IMG/VR virus record: IMGVR_UViG_3300050821_002136
Coordinates: 1 to 64,000 of that record
Source: a virus
Strand: one strand, 5' to 3'
DNA: 64,000 bases
Shown here piece by piece: positions 23,282-44,294 of the stretch. Every line of letters starts with the position of its first letter. The stretch's first letter is position 1. The notes beneath the pieces are model-generated. The model was not told the DNA's origin and searched no databases. It worked only from the letters and a program-made list of their open reading frames with translations. A program made the position numbers and the translations under genes.

Positions 23282-23420
23282 GGTTCTCCTTTTCATATTC
23301 TTCTTCGCACACCTCACAGAATTCTGCCGGAGGTACTACAGGCAGGCTGCATCGGGTACAACTTGGGTACAGTGACCAATCTGTGTAGTCGTCTTCGCCT
23401 TCACTTATGTGTTCTCCCAT
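23232..23420 (-). CDS. Small CxxC protein
   Basis: AAAGGAG RBS; CTRC...CEVC. Confidence 0.55.
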   Translation of the reverse strand: MGEHISEGEDDYTDWSLYPSCTRCSLPVVPPAEFCEVCEEEYEKENHEINQRIRCKHHRKRI

Positions 23421-23437
23421 AGTTCTCCTTTGAAGTT

Positions 23438-23512
23438 TGGTGGGCAATGCAGGACTCGAACCTGCGACATCCTGCGTGTAAGGCAGGCGCTCTGCCGCTG
23501 AGCTAATTGCCC
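23438..23512 (-). tRNA. tRNA-Val (UAC)
   Basis: Canonical cloverleaf, loop CTTACAC, TTCGAGT, CCA. Confidence 0.95.
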
Positions 23513-23868
23513 GTTATACTTCTCGCTTGTTTTGGACTAAGAGCAACAAGCTCCCATGCGCCGTCAAGAAACATCATTACCTTTGCTGGAGATTCGCTGA
23601 TGTCAATTACCTGTCCATCCTCGATCCATCCGTGAAAGCATGGGTATTGAATTGACGGAGAGACTGTAAGTTCATCAACAAATTTTCCCTCACGTTTCCA
23701 TAGAGGTTTTTGCCAAGGAGCGGGATTGTACCCATCCAGAGGGTTTTCAAAGTATACACACAGCCGATGGTTTGGTCCACACTTTGGACAGTCTAAGGTC
23801 ATTCCTTCTCCACTGTCGGGACGAAGTAGTCCACAAAATTTAGGATTTAAATTAATCAATGGAAGCAT
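23503..23868 (-). CDS. DUF6527-like protein
   Basis: CPKC..H, TVSPSI..CFHGWI.DG; stop overlaps the tRNA-Val 5' end. Confidence 0.6.
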   Translation of the reverse strand: MLPLINLNPKFCGLLRPDSGEGMTLDCPKCGPNHRLCVYFENPLDGYNPAPWQKPLWKREGKFVDELTVSPSIQYPCFHGWIEDGQVIDISESPAKVMMFLDGAWELVALSPKQARSITGN

Positions 23869-23887
23869 TGCTCTCTCCTTTGAAATT

Positions 23888-23963
23888 TGGTTGGCGCGGC
23901 AGGCTTCGAACCTGCGACCTCTCGGTTATCATCCGAGGGCTCTACCAATTGAGCTACGCGCCA
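23888..23963 (-). tRNA. tRNA-Ile (GAU)
   Basis: Cloverleaf, loop ATGATAA (A32), TTCGAAG, CCA. Confidence 0.9.
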
Positions 23964-23964
23964 G

Positions 23965-24040
23965 TGGAGGGTACGTGAGGTAACGCTCCTCATTCACATG
24001 GCGTCACAGGCCACTGCCGGTCCTTCCCGGTGCCGCACCC
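23965..24040 (-). tRNA. Atypical tRNA-His-like (GUG)
   Basis: GGGTGCG/CGTACCC, D arm CCGG/CCGG, loop CTGTGAC, T arm TGAGG-AGCGTTA-CCTCA, U73, CCA. Confidence 0.7.
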
Positions 24041-24118
24041 TTGGCTTGTGGCTGAGTGAGGCACGGCCATTCTCATTTAATCCTTGACCCACTGCTTCAA
24101 GGAACCACTAGCAAGACT

Positions 24119-24148
24119 AGTATACCACACCACCGGCCGGAAATGCAA
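24119..24148 (-). promoter_or_regulatory. Sigma70-type promoter for tRNA operon
   Basis: TTGCAT-18-TATACT with extended TG. Confidence 0.7.
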
Positions 24149-24149
24149 A

Positions 24150-25230
24150 TCCCTTGGGGTCCTCCTGGGGCTCCGCTCGGGTCCGGTCTTCGACACCGGC
24201 GAGGGTGTCTGGGTTCCTGCCACGTCCATTAGTAACGGACACCCAAGGACACACCCAAGGACACCCTTTGTCAACCTTAGGCTCCCGGATTGTCAACCTT
24301 AAGCCTGTTCATTGTCAACCTTTGTTCATGATTCGTGAACGCCCCGCGTATATACCCCTGAAAAATTTTGGGAGTATGCTCCGCATATTCTGCGTCTAAT
24401 AGACCTCCTAAGCTACGCAGGTTCCGGCCAGGGTGTGACCTATACATCACAGTGTAGAATTTACCTAGGGAGCCCCTCCGCATTAGGGAAAAATTGCACA
24501 GGTGTGCCCCCGCGTCTGCCGAGTGGGTCCCTTGCAAGGGGTGTACCCCGGGTCCTCCTTGGCCAGCCGGATCGCTCCTTAGGTAACCTGACCAAGGGTC
24601 AACCCAAGGTCCACCCAAGTGGGAAGCCAAGTCCAACTCCAGTTTGGTGGTGGGATTGCATGGTGGGACAAAGTGTACGTTCTCATGTACGCTCAGGAGT
24701 CGGGCCTCTCGGTGTGGCAGCAGAGGGAGGAGCAAGGGGTCAGGTTGGGGTCACCTCGGGTTACCTAAGGTCCGCTAAGCAAGCAAAGGAGTTAGCTTGG
24801 GAGGGGCTTGTAAGTATGTCATTCTAAAGGCCAAGGGAAACCCAAGGTCACACCGAGGTCAGCCGAGGTCAGCCCCGGGCATGCTGGGGTTACTAAGGTA
24901 ACTTTGGGGAAGACCAAAGTGCTCCCAAGGTTGAGCCGAGGGAGAGTAGAGGGAGCCTGATCGCTCCTAAGTGGTTGCTATGGTTGAGCTTAGGTCAGGT
25001 GCTTGGGTGTTATAGTCAGGTAACACACCTCCTGCTTATGGCTATACCTATGATCGGTACAGTGCTTGACCTAAGCTTGACCCTAGTCCTTTCATATACA
25101 TACGAACTGGCCAAGAGCTGAGCTGACCGCATACACCCTAGGGTGGCTTGGGACACCTCAGGCGCTGTCCTAGGACACCGTAGGGGGCCTGCTGGTCATA
25201 TGGTGACTACCTGTCTGTCCTACTGGTGAC
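24150..25230. repeat. Repeat-rich non-coding region (candidate origin / genome terminus)
   Basis: TTGTCAACCTT x3 at 24268, 24290, 24312; ACACCCAAGG x2; CCGAGGTCAG x2; many CCYAAGG/CCTNAGG variants; no credible ORF. Confidence 0.7.
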
Positions 25231-25237
25231 ATTCCGA

Positions 25238-25672
25238 TTAGAGCACGGGGTTCGAACGTACATGGCAGCGTATGCGCTCAGAGTCAGCAACGATTGCTCG
25301 AAGCTCTTCCAAGGTTGCATTGCTCTTCAGAGCATTAGCACGGTAAGAGATGACACGGACATTCCCAGACACATAACCCATGGCCGGAATGATTCGGTCA
25401 AGCGAAGGGGAAGAATCACAGGGCCTGCCACTCCCAGATTGAAGCTTAAGGCCGAGCACTGGGCAAACCTCAGGAATTGAAATGTCAGCGTCAGTCAGGT
25501 TGAAAGGCAAGCCAAGTTCTGAAGCTCTCTTCTTAGCAGCGTAGAGCATTGGCTTGTAAGGTTTTAGACGCCTGAACCGAGCCCATGCTGTCATCTTAAA
25601 CTCATTAGGATCATATACATCCGGGGGTTGTCTGTCTTTCATGTCTATTTGTCTCTGCTCTAGTGTTTTCAT
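25238..25672 (-). CDS. HNH-type endonuclease, probably leaderless
   Basis: CPVLG..SPSLDRI.P..GYV.GNVRVIS.RAN..K. Confidence 0.85.
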   Translation of the reverse strand: MKTLEQRQIDMKDRQPPDVYDPNEFKMTAWARFRRLKPYKPMLYAAKKRASELGLPFNLTDADISIPEVCPVLGLKLQSGSGRPCDSSPSLDRIIPAMGYVSGNVRVISYRANALKSNATLEELRAIVADSERIRCHVRSNPVL

Positions 25673-25679
25673 ATACTTA

Positions 25680-25709
25680 ATTATAGCATGTACACCTGCT
25701 AAAAGTCAA
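25680..25709 (-). promoter_or_regulatory. Sigma70-type promoter of the HNH gene
   Basis: TTGACT-18-TATAAT with TG; ATG 7 nt after the -10. Confidence 0.75.
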
Positions 25710-25805
25710 GTAGAAATTACACTGTGGGTAAAATAGTTCCCTCGAAGGGAAAAGACTTTCCCATTCATAGCCTGAGACCTGTTGAAAACAAAGCGACTAT
25801 AGTGC

Positions 25806-25834
25806 TTGACCTATGGCCAGTGCTTTGCTAGTAT
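25806..25834 (+). promoter_or_regulatory. Putative early promoter
   Basis: TTGACC-17-TAGTAT with TG extension. Confidence 0.65.
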
Positions 25835-25840
25835 CCATAC

Positions 25841-26236
25841 CAGTAAGCGGTACGGACAGGATAGGCTGAAAGTAGTGGCACGGAGCAGGTAACGGTTACC
25901 GGAGCAGGCCATGCCGTAGCGGCCAGTGAGGCGACCTGAGAAACTGAAGCGGGACAGGAAAGCCGCTTCGAACACCTCCGGTGCTGACGAACCAGCCGAC
26001 TCGGTCCAAGCCAAGCGATAGGACAAGAGTACGACATACGCGTGAATGGAAAAGCCGTCCGGTGTTCGAACCGGAGCGAAGTACAGCAAACGCGAAAGAC
26101 TCATCAGCAAACCCGTCATGGAAGGCTAGAGCCGAACGGGGTTCAGGATGCGATGCAGTCGCGGGGAAGTTTACGGGGCCTTACAAGTCCGCTCCCTTTA
26201 CTCACTGGATAACCCAGCCTATCGCGGTAACCTTAC
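25841..26236 (+). ncRNA. Large structured leader/ncRNA of unknown family
   Basis: Nested long-range helices: GATAGGCTG/CAGCCTATC, CCAGTGAG/CTCACTGG, GCGAC/GTCGC, CCTGA/TCAGG, TGCTGACGA/TCATCAGCA. Confidence 0.6.
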
Positions 26237-26251
26237 AGATTGGAAAACAAA

Positions 26252-26578
26252 ATGAAGCACGGTCATCGTGCGAACTATCGGCACACTCCCGAGTATCAGG
26301 CATACATGCACGCTAAGCACAGATGCACAAACCCGAACCATCCCAGATTCAAATACTGGGGCGGTCGCGGTATCCTGTTTAGGTTTGCATCGTTTGCTCA
26401 GTTTCTCGCGGACGTTGGGCCAAGACCTGCTGGAATGAGGCTAGATCGTAGCAATAATGACGGGCACTATGAACCCGGCAATGTGCGATGGGTCACACCT
26501 CTGGAAAGCAACCAAAACAAGCGACAAAGGCAAAGCAAGAAGATTAAGTCTTCATCATGCACTGCACCTAAGCTGTGA
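26252..26578 (+). CDS. HNH homing endonuclease
   Basis: RCTNP..YWGGRGI..LDRSNNDGHYEPGNVRW..NKR. Confidence 0.88.
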   Translation: MKHGHRANYRHTPEYQAYMHAKHRCTNPNHPRFKYWGGRGILFRFASFAQFLADVGPRPAGMRLDRSNNDGHYEPGNVRWVTPLESNQNKRQRQSKKIKSSSCTAPKL

Positions 26579-29500
26579 TTACAGGACCGAAAGGCCGCTT
26601 CACTGTTAGGCTTCAGTGCATGAATGAACACTTAGGAGGCAGCACATTATGATGGGAGCATCGTATCCAACCAAGAAAGCCCTGAAGGAAAACGTTGGCC
26701 AACCTTTGCGATACATAGAGACCAGCGCATTCGGTCTTGAGTACGTGGCAACGGGCAAGTTCTGCGTTGTTGGCCCCTCGCCTTACAATCGCAAGTGGTT
26801 CGCTGAAGTGACCATGAAAGACGGCGTCATTGCCAAGGTAAGCTAGTACCTGAATCCAATCCCGCACTGAGGAGACGATCATGACCACCACATTCACGCA
26901 CAAACATTATGAGAAGCTTGCTAGCTTCTTCCGCTACGAACTGGAAGTCAGCGACATGAGAGGCACGTTTAATCAAGTGCACAACGACATTCGAGTCAAC
27001 ACCATCAAGGGCTTGATCCGCTTGCTGGCCAACAATCTGGCCAACGACAACCCCAAGTTCAACACACAGCGTTTCTACAAGGCCGCAGGCCTGAAGGAGA
27101 CAGTATGAGCGCATATAAGCGCAAGACTGAAGACGAGTATCAGGTGCATGGGCTCTACTCTGGTGCATGGGAAGAAGTGACGTGCGAGACCACCAGAAGC
27201 GAAGCACGAGCACGGTTGAAAGAGTATCGGGAAAACGAACCGGGAACACCGTTCCGACTTGTTGTGCGCAGAGTCAAGATCGAAGCAACAATCTAAGATA
27301 TGCAAGGCATGCCCTGAAGACCTGAGAAGCCCTCAGGGCATGACTGGTACATCTTAGGAGGCAACAATGCCGCGAATCACGAAGGACAATCCACTCACGA
27401 ACTACATCAGCCGCGCTGAAATACAAAGCTGGCGTGACAATCACGACCGCGCCATCGTAGCTCAGGAGAACCAGAAGCTAGCACGCATCCAACTGGTGGA
27501 CGCGCTACAAACTGTGCTTGAGATGTTCGAGACCAACTCTACATTACCAGCAGGGCGAACCCTACAAGAACTTGACGCTGCATTCCCACGCGGCTCTGTG
27601 TACGGCATAGTCAAGGCCGCTGTAGCACGCATTCAGGAAGCGAGACTCTAACCTTAGGAGGACACCATGACCGCACCAAAGCTAATTGCAGAACGCAGAT
27701 TCGGGGATGTACGGGCGATGCTGGGCGACATCCAAGCCATGTTGGCGATTGCCAACCTGAAGTGGACCGACGTTGTATATGTGAAGACGTTCGAACCTGA
27801 AGAAGCCTACGCCTATGCCAGTATCGCTAGGCTCTGGGAAGAGAAACTGACTGATGGCAGCAAAGTTTACGAGCTGCACATCCTGTAACCCTGAGGAGGG
27901 ACCATGGCGCGATATCGTGAGACACCTGATGTAGAGCGTGAGCGTATGCCAAGCGTGCAAGGCGTTTGTAAGGATTGCAACGCTGGCACGCTCAACAACG
28001 AACTGAACCCCGCCTTCGACCTGTACGACGAAGGCATAACCTGCATACGCTGTGGCAGCTCGCACGTTGATGTCGTAGCATTCTAAACAGGAGCGGGTTC
28101 GAAAGAGCCCTGCTCACCCTGCACTGAACCGTCCTCGATAATGACACGGGCCATAATGCCTTAGTGAAGGTAACGGGAGTGCAGAGTGAGCAATCCAAGG
28201 AGAGACCATGGCAAACCATAAGTCTGGAGCAGAAAGATACAACGATAGAATGGCTAAAATTTGGGAAGATGCCAAGCGTTTGGAACGTGAGCGATTGAAG
28301 CGCGGAGAGAAGCCAAACTCTAACCTCACCTCTCCAGAAGAGGCGCAGAAGTATCAGGCCTTGAGAGATGCCGTGACCAATGCCATGGAGACCTTGGCAG
28401 ATGCGCTTGACCCTACCTCTGCATTGGACCGGGGAGAGATAGTAGAACTGCACAAAGAACTAACGCGTGCTAGGAAAGCACTGGAGGCAGCATGACCACA
28501 ATCAAGTACAATGGTGAGACACTCGAAGTCAGCAACGATGGCCGCGTGGCACGCATCAAGCCCGAGGCCATCTATGCACTGACGCGGGACCAAGACGTAC
28601 ACGAGGCAGTGGCCAAGGCGATTGAATGCCGAGGTGAGCTTGTGTACGTGCCAAGCACGAGCGCTGCACGCGGCCTGAAGCCGAGGAGTGCTCAGAAGTA
28701 CTTTGTCCAATAGGAGGACATCATGGGATACTTTGAAGCACTAAAAGCCGCTGGCGCAAAGCTATTGGCCAGCTCAACGTTTGGTAGTTATCAGGGCGAT
28801 TGGTTTGCCAAGGTAGTTTATCAAGGCCGCACATTCTGGGTACACGGTTCGTATGGCTCGTGCTCCTACTGTGACGCTTTCCAAAGCGAATTTGATTACG
28901 CTGCGGGAGACACCTGCGACGAACACAAGTACGAAGGTGACTCACCAGAGTCTAAGGCCTGTGAAGCCTGCAAGGCCGCACCTGCTACTTATCAGGCCAA
29001 GCTGGCCGCGTTTGGCCTAGGCTACCTGACTTCAGGAGACATGACCCAAGCTGAAGCCGAGGCACTAGCAAGCCGAAACCTAGAATGGGACGAAGACGCA
29101 ACGGAAATGTTGACCTTCGTACAAGCTAACGCAATCTAAACCTCAGGAGGACACCATGCATATTCAAATTGTTGAGGATGCGCAAGCACCAGCGTATGTG
29201 GTGATCGTACATCACACAGATTATGAGCAGACCATCAGATACTACCTTAGTGAGCAAGCTGCTAGGGATGAGTATGCAAAGCAGTCAGCTCTGCACAATG
29301 AAGTTTACATTGCCAAGCTTTTGGCATAACCTGTTCCAAGTCCTCAGGAGGACACCATGGCAAAGATGAAAGCAACACCCAAGTCATACTCAGAAGCAGC
29401 AGCGTTACTCAATGGTCGGGAGCAGGTCAAGCTGGGCAACAACACTTGGCTTGAACGCCTCGAAGGCCTTCAGTTCATCGGTGTGCGTTTGCACAATACG

Positions 29501-44019: not shown

Positions 44020-44294
44020 AGTTATGGATGTATGAAGCTGAGGTACGAGTTGCAAGACCCGGTTTCGATACCGGCAGGTCCACCACAACGCTTCAGGTAT
44101 AACGGCATTACCGGCGTACACCCGGAGAGCGGGTCTCGCTGAAGCGTTTTGATGGGCCTGAAAGGTTTCGATTGCGACTACGAGACAGCAGTGGACATCC
44201 CGAGATGACGTGGCCCTCGTTAAAAGGACACGTAACAACCAACCGCGACTGAAAAGCCGATGGTTATGGCAGCTGCCGCAGGGCGCTAGCCATA
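44020..44294 (+). ncRNA. ssrA: Circularly permuted (two-piece) tmRNA
   Basis: Acceptor piece ending CAGGTCC-A-CCA (44075-44085) precedes 5' GGGCCTG (44154); G3.U70; helix 2, pk1 and tag ORF 44245-44289. Confidence 0.9.

What the first reader, a model, noticed from the sequence alone, without database searches (positions are those of the whole stretch)
25841..26236. ~390-nt multi-domain RNA between the early promoter and an HNH gene
Seen: no credible ORF, but nested long-range pairs 25860-68/26215-23, 25923-30/26201-08, GCGAC/GTCGC, CCTGA/TCAGG and 25982-90/26101-09. Local hairpins include GAAGCGG/CCGCTTC and TCCGGT-GTTCGA-ACCGGA. Two crossing or alternative pairings exist: TTCGAACACC/GGTGTTCGAA and GGTTACCG/CGGTAACC. 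It starts just after the predicted promoter and ends 15 nt before an HNH ORF that lacks an obvious SD. Inference: a new large ncRNA. Options are a cis antiterminator for the long early operon (HK022 put-like), a ribozyme, or an RNA partner of the HNH protein (HEARO-like arrangement, although this HNH is not IscB).
Basis: partly seen in the sequence, partly recalled or inferred. Interest (0 to 1): 0.8.

Follow-up and report, generated by a model that had tools for sequence, protein, structure and literature searches.

The report
Orphan untranslated leader before phage HNH gene
The roughly 400 bases between a phage early promoter and a small HNH endonuclease gene are non-coding and rich in inverted repeats, but they fold no better than shuffled sequence and have no relative anywhere I could search. 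They read best as a lineage-specific untranslated leader, not as a demonstrated new RNA family.

Summary
The window is part of a 108-kb IMG/VR phage record. The stretch 25841-26236 is non-coding: its chance ORFs have no Shine-Dalgarno (SD) sequence, no coding signal and no protein match. It follows a sigma-70-like promoter and precedes an HNH gene that, unlike every other early gene, has no SD.

The stated pairings exist. Perfect inverted repeats are more frequent than in shuffles (8 of at least 8 bp against 1.1 expected). The region is also GC-rich (57%, 99th percentile of the genome).

The evidence for a large structured RNA is weak:
- Fold energy is ordinary: z -1.1 on both strands, and coding neighbours reach z -3 to -4.
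- The outer helices change with the flanks chosen.
- Several inverted repeats come from repeated palindromic motifs (GGTWACC, TTCGAA). GGTWACC is also enriched in the neighbouring 1.2-kb ORF-free tract.
- There is no Rfam match.
- No homologue turned up in GenBank phages, in plasmids, or in about 210 loci around relatives of the three flanking genes, so covariation cannot be tested.
- Relatives of the HNH protein and of the early operon lack the element.
- A resemblance to RNase P RNA was tested and rejected.

Best reading: an orphan untranslated leader. A DNA-level control region and a true orphan ncRNA remain possible.

The parts
25806..25834 (+). Sigma-70-like promoter: TTGACC, 17-nt spacer, TG-extended TAGTAT. 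Predicted transcription start is about 25841-25843.
   Evidence: 9 of 12 consensus positions, TG present. The -35 context TAYAGTGCTTGACCTA recurs at 25058.
25680..25709 (-). Divergent leftward promoter-like site TTGACT-18-TATAAT. Its -10 ends 7 nt before the ATG of the 144-aa endonuclease gene.
   Evidence: 11 of 12 positions, TG present; sequence.
25841..26236 (+). ORF-free leader. GC 57.3%, T 14.9%, purine 58.8%. It has an excess of perfect inverted repeats.
25946..25969 (+). Hairpin GAAGCGG / CCGCUUC with the loop GACAGGAAAG. Pairing probability 1.0 in all three folds.
25983..26030 (+). Two small local stems: 25983-86/25993-96, and 25999-26002/26027-30 stacked on 26004-07/26021-24.
   Evidence: probability 0.84-0.99.
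26039..26094 (+). Stem CGCGU/ACGCG enclosing the hairpin UCCGGU-GUUCGA-ACCGGA (26058-26075).
   Evidence: probability 0.97 in all three folds.
26098..26160 (+). Stem GACU.CAUC / GAUG.AGUC closing a branched arm.
   Evidence: probability 0.97-0.98.
25860..25868 (+). 5' arm of the 9-bp long-range pair with 26215-26223. It competes with GCGATAGG (26015-22), which pairs with 26218-25.
   Evidence: Present in two of the three flank contexts.
25894..25901 (+). GGTTACCG, complementary to CGGTAACC at 26225-26232. It is one copy of the palindromic motif GGTWACC.
25963..25976 (+). CCGCTTCGAACACC, a 14-nt inverted copy (93% complementary) of GGTGTTCGAACCGG at 26061-26074, with 84 nt between them. Either an alternative RNA pairing or two DNA sites.
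   Evidence: I10.
26148..26255 (+). A 35-codon upstream ORF whose TGA stop overlaps the HNH ATG (ATGA). Translational coupling is possible. It has a poor SD and may be chance.
26252..26578 (+). Free-standing HNH endonuclease gene (108 aa from the ATG) with no SD.
   Evidence: phrog_3377, E 3.9e-27; 590 relatives in IMG/VR.
25238..25672 (-). Divergent 144-aa endonuclease gene, endonuclease VII/HNH-like.
   Evidence: phrog_3322, E 1.6e-29.
26649..26846 (+). First SD-led early gene (65 aa, phrog_37117). It is conserved in many uncultured phages and was used as the anchor for related loci.

Best explanation
The stretch is a lineage-specific, untranslated 5' leader of the rightward early transcript.

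Inferred from sequence: host RNA polymerase starts at about 25841 from the sigma-70-like promoter. The first roughly 410 nt carry no translatable ORF. They are G+C-rich and U-poor and fold into a handful of ordinary local hairpins, with changeable long-range closings. The leader runs straight into a free-standing HNH homing-endonuclease gene that has no Shine-Dalgarno sequence.

Inferred function: the leader acts mainly as a spacer or insulator. Little HNH protein would be made from the early transcript, through inefficient initiation or re-initiation after the 35-codon upstream ORF that ends in ATGA. Efficient translation would begin only at the next gene (26649), which has a strong SD. The G-rich, structured, untranslated RNA would also be a poor Rho substrate.

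Shown here: non-coding status, the promoter-like site, the missing SD, the excess of inverted repeats, and the absence of the element from relatives. Transcription, folding and any regulatory effect are all inferred.
For: - There is no SD-led ORF, and codon scores are 0.05 or less in all frames.
- The chance ORFs match no protein family or phage.
- The promoter-like site ends 7 nt before 25841.
- No + strand terminator-like site lies between 25841 and the HNH gene, so the stretch is contiguous with the HNH mRNA.
- All 11 downstream early genes examined have AGGAGG-type SDs, and HNH has none.
- Free-standing phage homing-endonuclease genes often lack a recognisable translation initiation region and are translationally limited (PMC2988022).
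- The element is absent next to relatives of all three flanking genes and from five whole related phage records. This fits a lineage-specific leader rather than a conserved functional RNA.
- Fold energy is ordinary.
Against: - The excess of perfect inverted repeats and the GC content at the 99th percentile of the genome are more than a passive spacer needs.
- The core 25941-26172 is somewhat more stable than shuffles on the + strand only: z -2.2 against -0.9.
- In the predicted folds the HNH start region is mostly unpaired, so the classic sequestered-RBS mechanism of T4 endonuclease genes is not seen.
- The promoter is only a 9/12 consensus match, and no expression data could be obtained.
Confidence: 0.45

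Rival explanations
1. DNA-level control region. The stretch, together with the 1.2-kb ORF-free, repeat-rich tract at 24040-25238, is a remnant of one large non-coding control region around the divergent promoters. Candidate roles are regulator binding sites, a replication origin or a packaging site. The 144-aa endonuclease gene would have inserted into this region. On this view the inverted repeats are protein-binding palindromes, not RNA helices.
For: - GGTAAC/GTTACC is enriched jointly in both tracts: 4 + 3 copies against 20 in the remaining 62 kb, p 1.4e-6.
- GGTWACC occurs 18 times in 108 kb, and 4 of those copies lie within 24582-26226.
- Two 14-nt copies of GGTGTTCGAA(S)CGG lie in inverted orientation 84 bp apart.
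- Fold energies are equal on the two strands.
- The neighbouring tract carries 11-mers repeated at exact 22-bp spacing and many CCCAAGG/AGGTCA repeats.
- The window starting at 24501 has the highest inverted-repeat count in the 64 kb.
Against: - Apart from GGTWACC the two tracts share no repeat family. CCCAAGG and AGGTCA are absent from the target.
- The target is GC-rich, with no AT-rich unwinding element and no iterons of its own.
- No DNA-binding protein or initiator gene has been identified next to it.
- The strong purine/U-poor strand bias fits a transcribed strand.
Confidence: 0.23
2. Functionless residue. The stretch is sequence carried in with, or left behind by, invasion of the two endonuclease genes, or a decayed gene. 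It is transcribed only because it lies behind the promoter.
For: - It sits between two mobile-type endonuclease genes.
- It has no homologue anywhere searched.
- Thermodynamic stability is ordinary.
- In relatives the first early gene is preceded by quite different sequences.
Against: - Six-frame comparison finds no residual protein similarity.
- The inverted-repeat excess and the GC/purine bias are unexpected for decaying sequence.
- Phage genomes are compact, and 400 nt of junk directly behind an early promoter would be unusual (general knowledge).
Confidence: 0.2
3. A functional orphan ncRNA. Candidate roles are a cis-acting antiterminator or Rho shield for the long early operon, a ribozyme, an RNA partner of the HNH protein, or a protein sponge made first after infection.
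For: - It is promoter-proximal and ORF-free, with an RNA-like composition similar to the phage's own tmRNA: GC 57%, T 15%.
- The core domain has z -2.2 on the sense strand only.
- Six helices are stable in every fold context.
- Mutually exclusive pairings are present that could act as a switch.
- There are 14 GGA motifs, placing it in the top 2.3% of windows.
Against: - There is no Rfam family at E<=10.
- There is no homologue, so no covariation can be shown.
- It is not linked to relatives of the HNH protein or to related early operons.
- The whole-region z is -1.1, and coding neighbours fold better.
- The outer architecture is unstable to the choice of flanks.
- The HNH protein is a 108-aa stand-alone nuclease, not an RNA-guided IscB-type protein.
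- Only weak terminator-like sites lie downstream for antitermination to act on.
Confidence: 0.12

Closest known systems
Untranslated or structured leaders that limit translation of phage homing-endonuclease genes (T4 I-TevI/II/III and segB, Aeh1 mobE; review PMC2988022)
   Same: An endonuclease gene rides on an early polycistronic transcript. It has a poor or unavailable ribosome-binding site and structured RNA directly upstream. A stop/start overlap (ATGA here, UAAUGA for nrdA/mobE) makes coupling possible.
   Different: The known cases use one short, stable hairpin that sequesters a good SD, and a late promoter then releases it. Here there is no SD at all, the start region is predicted to be mostly unpaired, the leader is about 400 nt long, and no internal late promoter was found.
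HEARO / IscB omega-RNA (Rfam RF02033)
   Same: A large structured RNA lies directly upstream of an ORF that contains an HNH domain.
   Different: There is no covariance-model match. The protein is a 108-aa stand-alone phage HNH protein (phrog_3377) with no RuvC or bridge-helix domains. Relatives of the protein do not carry the RNA.
HK022 putL/putR cis-acting antiterminator RNAs
   Same: The position, immediately downstream of an early promoter at the head of a long operon.
   Different: put RNAs are about 70 nt with two stem-loops (from my own knowledge). The element here is about 400 nt, is not conserved in related early operons, and has only weak terminator-like sites downstream on the + strand.
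Bacterial RNase P RNA, type A (Rfam RF00010)
   Same: Similar length and composition. Twelve 8-mers are shared with E. coli M1 RNA, including a CR-V-like AACCCAGCCUAUCG. That is the highest count of any window in the 64 kb.
   Different: There is no covariance-model hit. The shared words are not collinear. A set of 107 other RNase P RNAs share only 4.4+-2.9 words, the same as the shuffle level. An nhmmer profile built from them finds nothing. The P4-like helix has no bulged U. Rejected as coincidence.
T7 early leader (A1-A3 promoters to gene 0.3, with RNase III site R0.3)
   Same: An untranslated leader several hundred nucleotides long at the start of the early transcript of a lytic phage (from my own knowledge).
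   Different: The T7 leader holds tandem promoters and a defined RNase III hairpin. Here only one promoter-like site was found, and there is no long regular duplex.

Membership tests
HEARO / IscB omega-RNA | Match to the Rfam covariance model | tested here: not met
   No hit at the gathering score over the whole window, and none at E<=10 in 25600-26700.
HEARO / IscB omega-RNA | The adjacent protein is IscB-like (RuvC + bridge helix + HNH, about 400-500 aa) | tested here: not met
   The ORF is 108 aa. It has no Pfam hit, and its PHROG hits are stand-alone HNH endonucleases.
HEARO / IscB omega-RNA | The RNA stays linked to homologues of the protein | tested here: not met
   Eighty loci around relatives of the HNH protein give no nhmmer or blastn similarity. 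The median upstream gap is 123 nt.
Processive antiterminator RNA (HK022 put-like) | Conserved promoter-proximal stem-loops at the head of related operons | tested here: not met
   Not found in 42 viral and 80 metagenome loci around the conserved first early gene. No homologous ORF-free gaps exist among them.
Processive antiterminator RNA (HK022 put-like) | Terminators downstream that must be read through | tested here: inconclusive
   Only weak + strand terminator-like sites lie between 25841 and about 39600. Rho-dependent sites cannot be predicted here.
RNase P RNA (bacterial type A) | Match to RF00010, with a conserved CR-I/CR-V P4 helix containing a bulged U | tested here: not met
   RF00010 finds nothing in the target. 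The profile of 107 RNase P RNAs finds nothing. The candidate P4 is a perfect 9-bp duplex.
Known self-cleaving or self-splicing ribozymes (group I/II introns, GIR1, hammerhead, HDV-like, twister and others in Rfam 15) | Match to a family model | tested here: not met
   There are also no flanking exons, because no ORF lies upstream of 25841 on the + strand.
Homing-endonuclease translational-control hairpin (T4 I-TevI type) | A stable structure that sequesters the SD and start codon of the endonuclease gene | tested here: not met
   No SD is present. The region 26238-26264 forms only a weak stem (probability 0.61), with the AUG in its loop.
CsrB/Rsm-type protein-sponge RNA | Many GGA motifs displayed in hairpin loops, and a match to a family model | tested here: inconclusive
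   There are 14 GGA motifs, placing it in the top 2.3% of windows, but this follows largely from the G/A-rich composition. Only one hairpin loop clearly displays GGA (25953-25962). No Rfam hit.
tRNA / tmRNA-like element | A cloverleaf or tRNA-like domain detected by ARAGORN or Rfam | tested here: not met
   The GUUCGA hairpin has a 6-nt loop on a 6-bp stem, which is not a T-arm.

The most novel reading that the evidence does not exclude
The stretch is a real orphan early RNA of about 390 nt. It would be the first product made after genome entry, and it would act on its own, for example as a switchable Rho-shielding or antitermination element for the >13-kb early operon, or as a decoy for a host RNA-binding or defence protein. 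Its alternative pairings would act as a switch: 25860/26015 competing for 26215-25, and the TTCGAACACC.CTCCGGT segment against the 26058-75 hairpin. It would have no relative in current databases.
Probability: 0.1. Interest if true: 0.6.

Novelty: new member of a known kind. Interest (0 to 1): 0.25.

Why it matters
If the leader reading is right, this is an ordinary feature. It is another example of a phage keeping a selfish endonuclease gene poorly translated behind an early promoter. It is useful mainly for annotation: do not call the 102- and 111-aa ORFs here.

It would matter more if the stretch proved to be a discrete RNA. Large phage-encoded ncRNAs made immediately after infection are rare, and their functions (antitermination, anti-defence decoys) are of current interest. 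The present evidence gives no handle on that beyond an inverted-repeat excess and composition.

The shared GGTWACC motif with the neighbouring 1.2-kb repeat tract may help locate this phage's replication or packaging control region.

Tried and rejected
1. Known RNA families. Rfam 15 was run at gathering score over the whole window and at E<=10 over 25600-26700 and 23850-25300. It found only tRNAs and a permuted tmRNA elsewhere.

2. Homologue collection. All of the following were negative for the 396 nt:
- GenBank phages by blastn and plasmids.
- 80 loci around relatives of the HNH protein.
- 42 viral and 80 metagenome loci around the 65-aa early gene.
- 6 loci around relatives of the 144-aa endonuclease.
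- 5 whole related phage records.
- The phage's own 108 kb, which holds a single copy.
- The earlier notes of this scan.

3. Exact-pattern scans of IMG/VR. The TTCGAACACC...GGTGTTCGAA pair, an 18-mer of the GUUCGA hairpin and the promoter 18-mer were tried. They returned only unrelated chance matches.

4. RNase P RNA. I recalled a resemblance and tested it. The excess of 8-mers shared with E. coli M1 is real. It does not extend to 107 other RNase P RNAs, to a profile built from them, to RF00010, or to BLAST against the E. coli chromosome. Rejected.

5. Hidden protein gene. Six-frame tblastn against all loci, PHROGs and tblastn against phages found nothing.

6. tRNA-like element. ARAGORN found none.

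7. Analogous leaders in relatives. ORF-free gaps upstream of the early gene exist in some relatives, but they are unrelated to the target and mostly unrelated to each other. Rfam finds only tRNAs there.

8. CsrA-sponge idea. GGA enrichment is modest and driven by composition.

The 18.9-kb contig encoding the closest relative of the early gene (P0002, 88% identity) and a second contig with the identical protein (P0001) therefore could not be fetched.

10. No covariance model was built. With a single sequence and an unstable predicted fold it would not reach further than nhmmer.

Full report
**Context.** The window is bases 1-64000 of a 108,277-bp IMG/VR virus record estimated 98% complete. It encodes a large terminase, DNA polymerase, ribonucleotide reductase, helicases and a primase, several tRNAs and a permuted tmRNA. 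No GenBank phage resembles it at the DNA level.

The finding lies at a divergent promoter region. To the left, a 144-aa endonuclease VII/HNH-like gene (25238-25672, minus strand; phrog_3322) sits behind a strong leftward promoter-like site. To the right lie a promoter-like site at 25806-25834 (TTGACC, 17 nt, TG-extended TAGTAT), the 396-nt stretch, a 108-aa HNH gene (phrog_3377), and then a long run of small rightward genes.

**The observation.**
One of them, 25982-90/26101-09, has a C-A mismatch.
- Perfect inverted repeats are clearly over-represented. There are 16 of at least 7 bp against 4.1+-2.5, and 8 of at least 8 bp against 1.1. None of 1000 dinucleotide shuffles reaches either value, and the region is in the top 0.6% of windows of the 64 kb.
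- The stretch is non-coding. No start codon has a usable SD, codon-usage scores are at background in all six frames, and the chance ORFs of 102 and 111 aa match nothing.
- Its GC content (57.3%) is at the 99th percentile of the genome (49.8+-3.2%). It is U-poor and purine-rich, much like the phage's tmRNA.
- The HNH gene has no SD, whereas all 11 downstream genes examined have AGGAGG-type SDs.

**Why this is not yet a structured RNA.**
- The minimum free energy of the whole stretch gives z -1.10 on the plus strand and -1.03 on the minus strand.
- The best sub-domain, 25941-26172, gives z -2.2 on the plus strand and -0.9 on the minus strand. A sliding scan of 23400-28500 shows several coding windows at z -3 to -4, while windows within the target reach only -0.9 to -1.6.
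- Six local or medium-range helices are stable whatever flanks are included. The outer closing helix switches between 25860-68/26215-23 and 25894-901/26225-32.
- Several inverted repeats are mutually exclusive.
- Some repeats exist because palindromic motifs recur. One is GGTWACC. The other is a 14-nt GGTGTTCGAA(S)CGG site present twice in opposite orientation.
- GGTAAC/GTTACC is jointly enriched in the target and in the neighbouring 1.2-kb ORF-free, repeat-rich tract at 24040-25238 (p 1.4e-6). Four of the 18 genomic GGTWACC sites lie within 24582-26226. This keeps a DNA-level reading open.

**Comparative evidence.** None could be obtained.
- Rfam 15 has no match.
- The 396 nt have no detectable relative in GenBank phages or plasmids, nor in 80 loci around relatives of the HNH protein.
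- They have none in 122 loci around the conserved 65-aa first early gene, in 6 loci around relatives of the 144-aa endonuclease, or in five whole related phage records.
- Exact-pattern scans gave only chance matches.
Relatives of the HNH protein usually have short upstream gaps (median 123 nt) and no similar sequence. Related early operons begin with unrelated sequence.

**A lead that failed.** From memory the 3' end resembled the CR-V/P4 region of RNase P RNA. The target does share twelve 8-mers with E. coli M1 RNA, more than any other window of the 64 kb. However:
- The matches are not collinear.
- RF00010 does not match.
- 107 other bacterial RNase P RNAs share no more words than shuffles do.
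- A profile built from them finds nothing.

I treat this as coincidence.

**Interpretation.** The simplest account is an orphan, untranslated leader. Transcription from the promoter-like site would run through about 410 nt of SD-less, G-rich RNA into a free-standing HNH gene that itself lacks an SD. Efficient translation would begin at 26649.

Poor or absent translation initiation regions, RNA structures and stop/start overlaps are documented ways in which phages limit homing-endonuclease synthesis (PMC2988022). Here a 35-codon upstream ORF ends in ATGA on the HNH start, but this may be chance. The classic sequestered-SD hairpin is not present.

Three rivals remain:
- A DNA-level control region shared with the neighbouring repeat tract.
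- Functionless residue of endonuclease-gene invasion.
- A functional orphan ncRNA.

I rate these at about 0.23, 0.20 and 0.12, against 0.45 for the leader.

**Limits.** Expression data, read-level variation and the two closest contigs were therefore out of reach.

Noticed in passing
window 24040-25238: A 1.2-kb ORF-free, GC-rich (55%) tract between the tRNA cluster and the 144-aa endonuclease gene. It is packed with short repeats: TTGTCAACCTT three times at exact 22-bp spacing, plus ACACCCAAGG, CCCAAGG and AGGTCA variants. It holds the highest inverted-repeat count in the window and shares the GGTWACC motif with the target. Several plus-strand windows fold at z -2 to -3. No Rfam hit.
   Followed up: partly
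window 25058-25073 and 25798-25813: The 16-mer TA(C/T)AGTGCTTGACCTA, which holds the -35 of the early promoter, occurs twice, 740 bp apart on the same strand. GTGCTTGACC occurs nowhere else in the 108-kb genome. The upstream copy has no well-spaced -10 and would point into the antisense strand of the 144-aa endonuclease gene.
   Followed up: partly
window 25670-25709, minus strand: The strong leftward promoter-like site (TTGACT-18-TATAAT, 11 of 12) ends 7 nt before the ATG of the 144-aa endonuclease gene. That mRNA would therefore be leaderless or nearly so. Both endonuclease genes at this locus lack an SD.
   Followed up: no
window 44026-44283, plus strand: Rfam tmRNA_permuted (RF04321) matches at 66.6 bits against a gathering score of 47. 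This is a phage-encoded two-piece tmRNA.
   Followed up: no
window 25841-26236 against E. coli rnpB (L209:317-693, minus strand): Twelve 8-mers are shared with E. coli M1 RNA, against 3.6+-2.5 in shuffles. This is the maximum over all windows of the 64 kb. It is not reproduced with 107 other RNase P RNAs, so I judge it coincidence.
   Followed up: yes
L113:1110-1220, L194:147-240, L118:2015-2114, L102:2340-2408 (approximate): A non-coding element of about 100 nt is conserved at 75-84% identity among ORF-free gaps of several distant relatives of this phage group, upstream of their copy of the 65-aa early gene. It is unrelated to the target.
   Followed up: no
L086:3640-3720: In one relative, the roughly 500-nt ORF-free gap directly upstream of the 65-aa gene contains a tRNA-like T-arm/acceptor sequence (…CAGGTTCGACTCCTG…). 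Neither ARAGORN nor Rfam calls it.
   Followed up: no
window 26881-29357: The early genes share near-identical translation initiation regions (…TAGGAGGACACCATG, …CAGGAGGACACCATG) that extend beyond the SD. The HNH gene at 26252 is the single exception in the series.
   Followed up: partly
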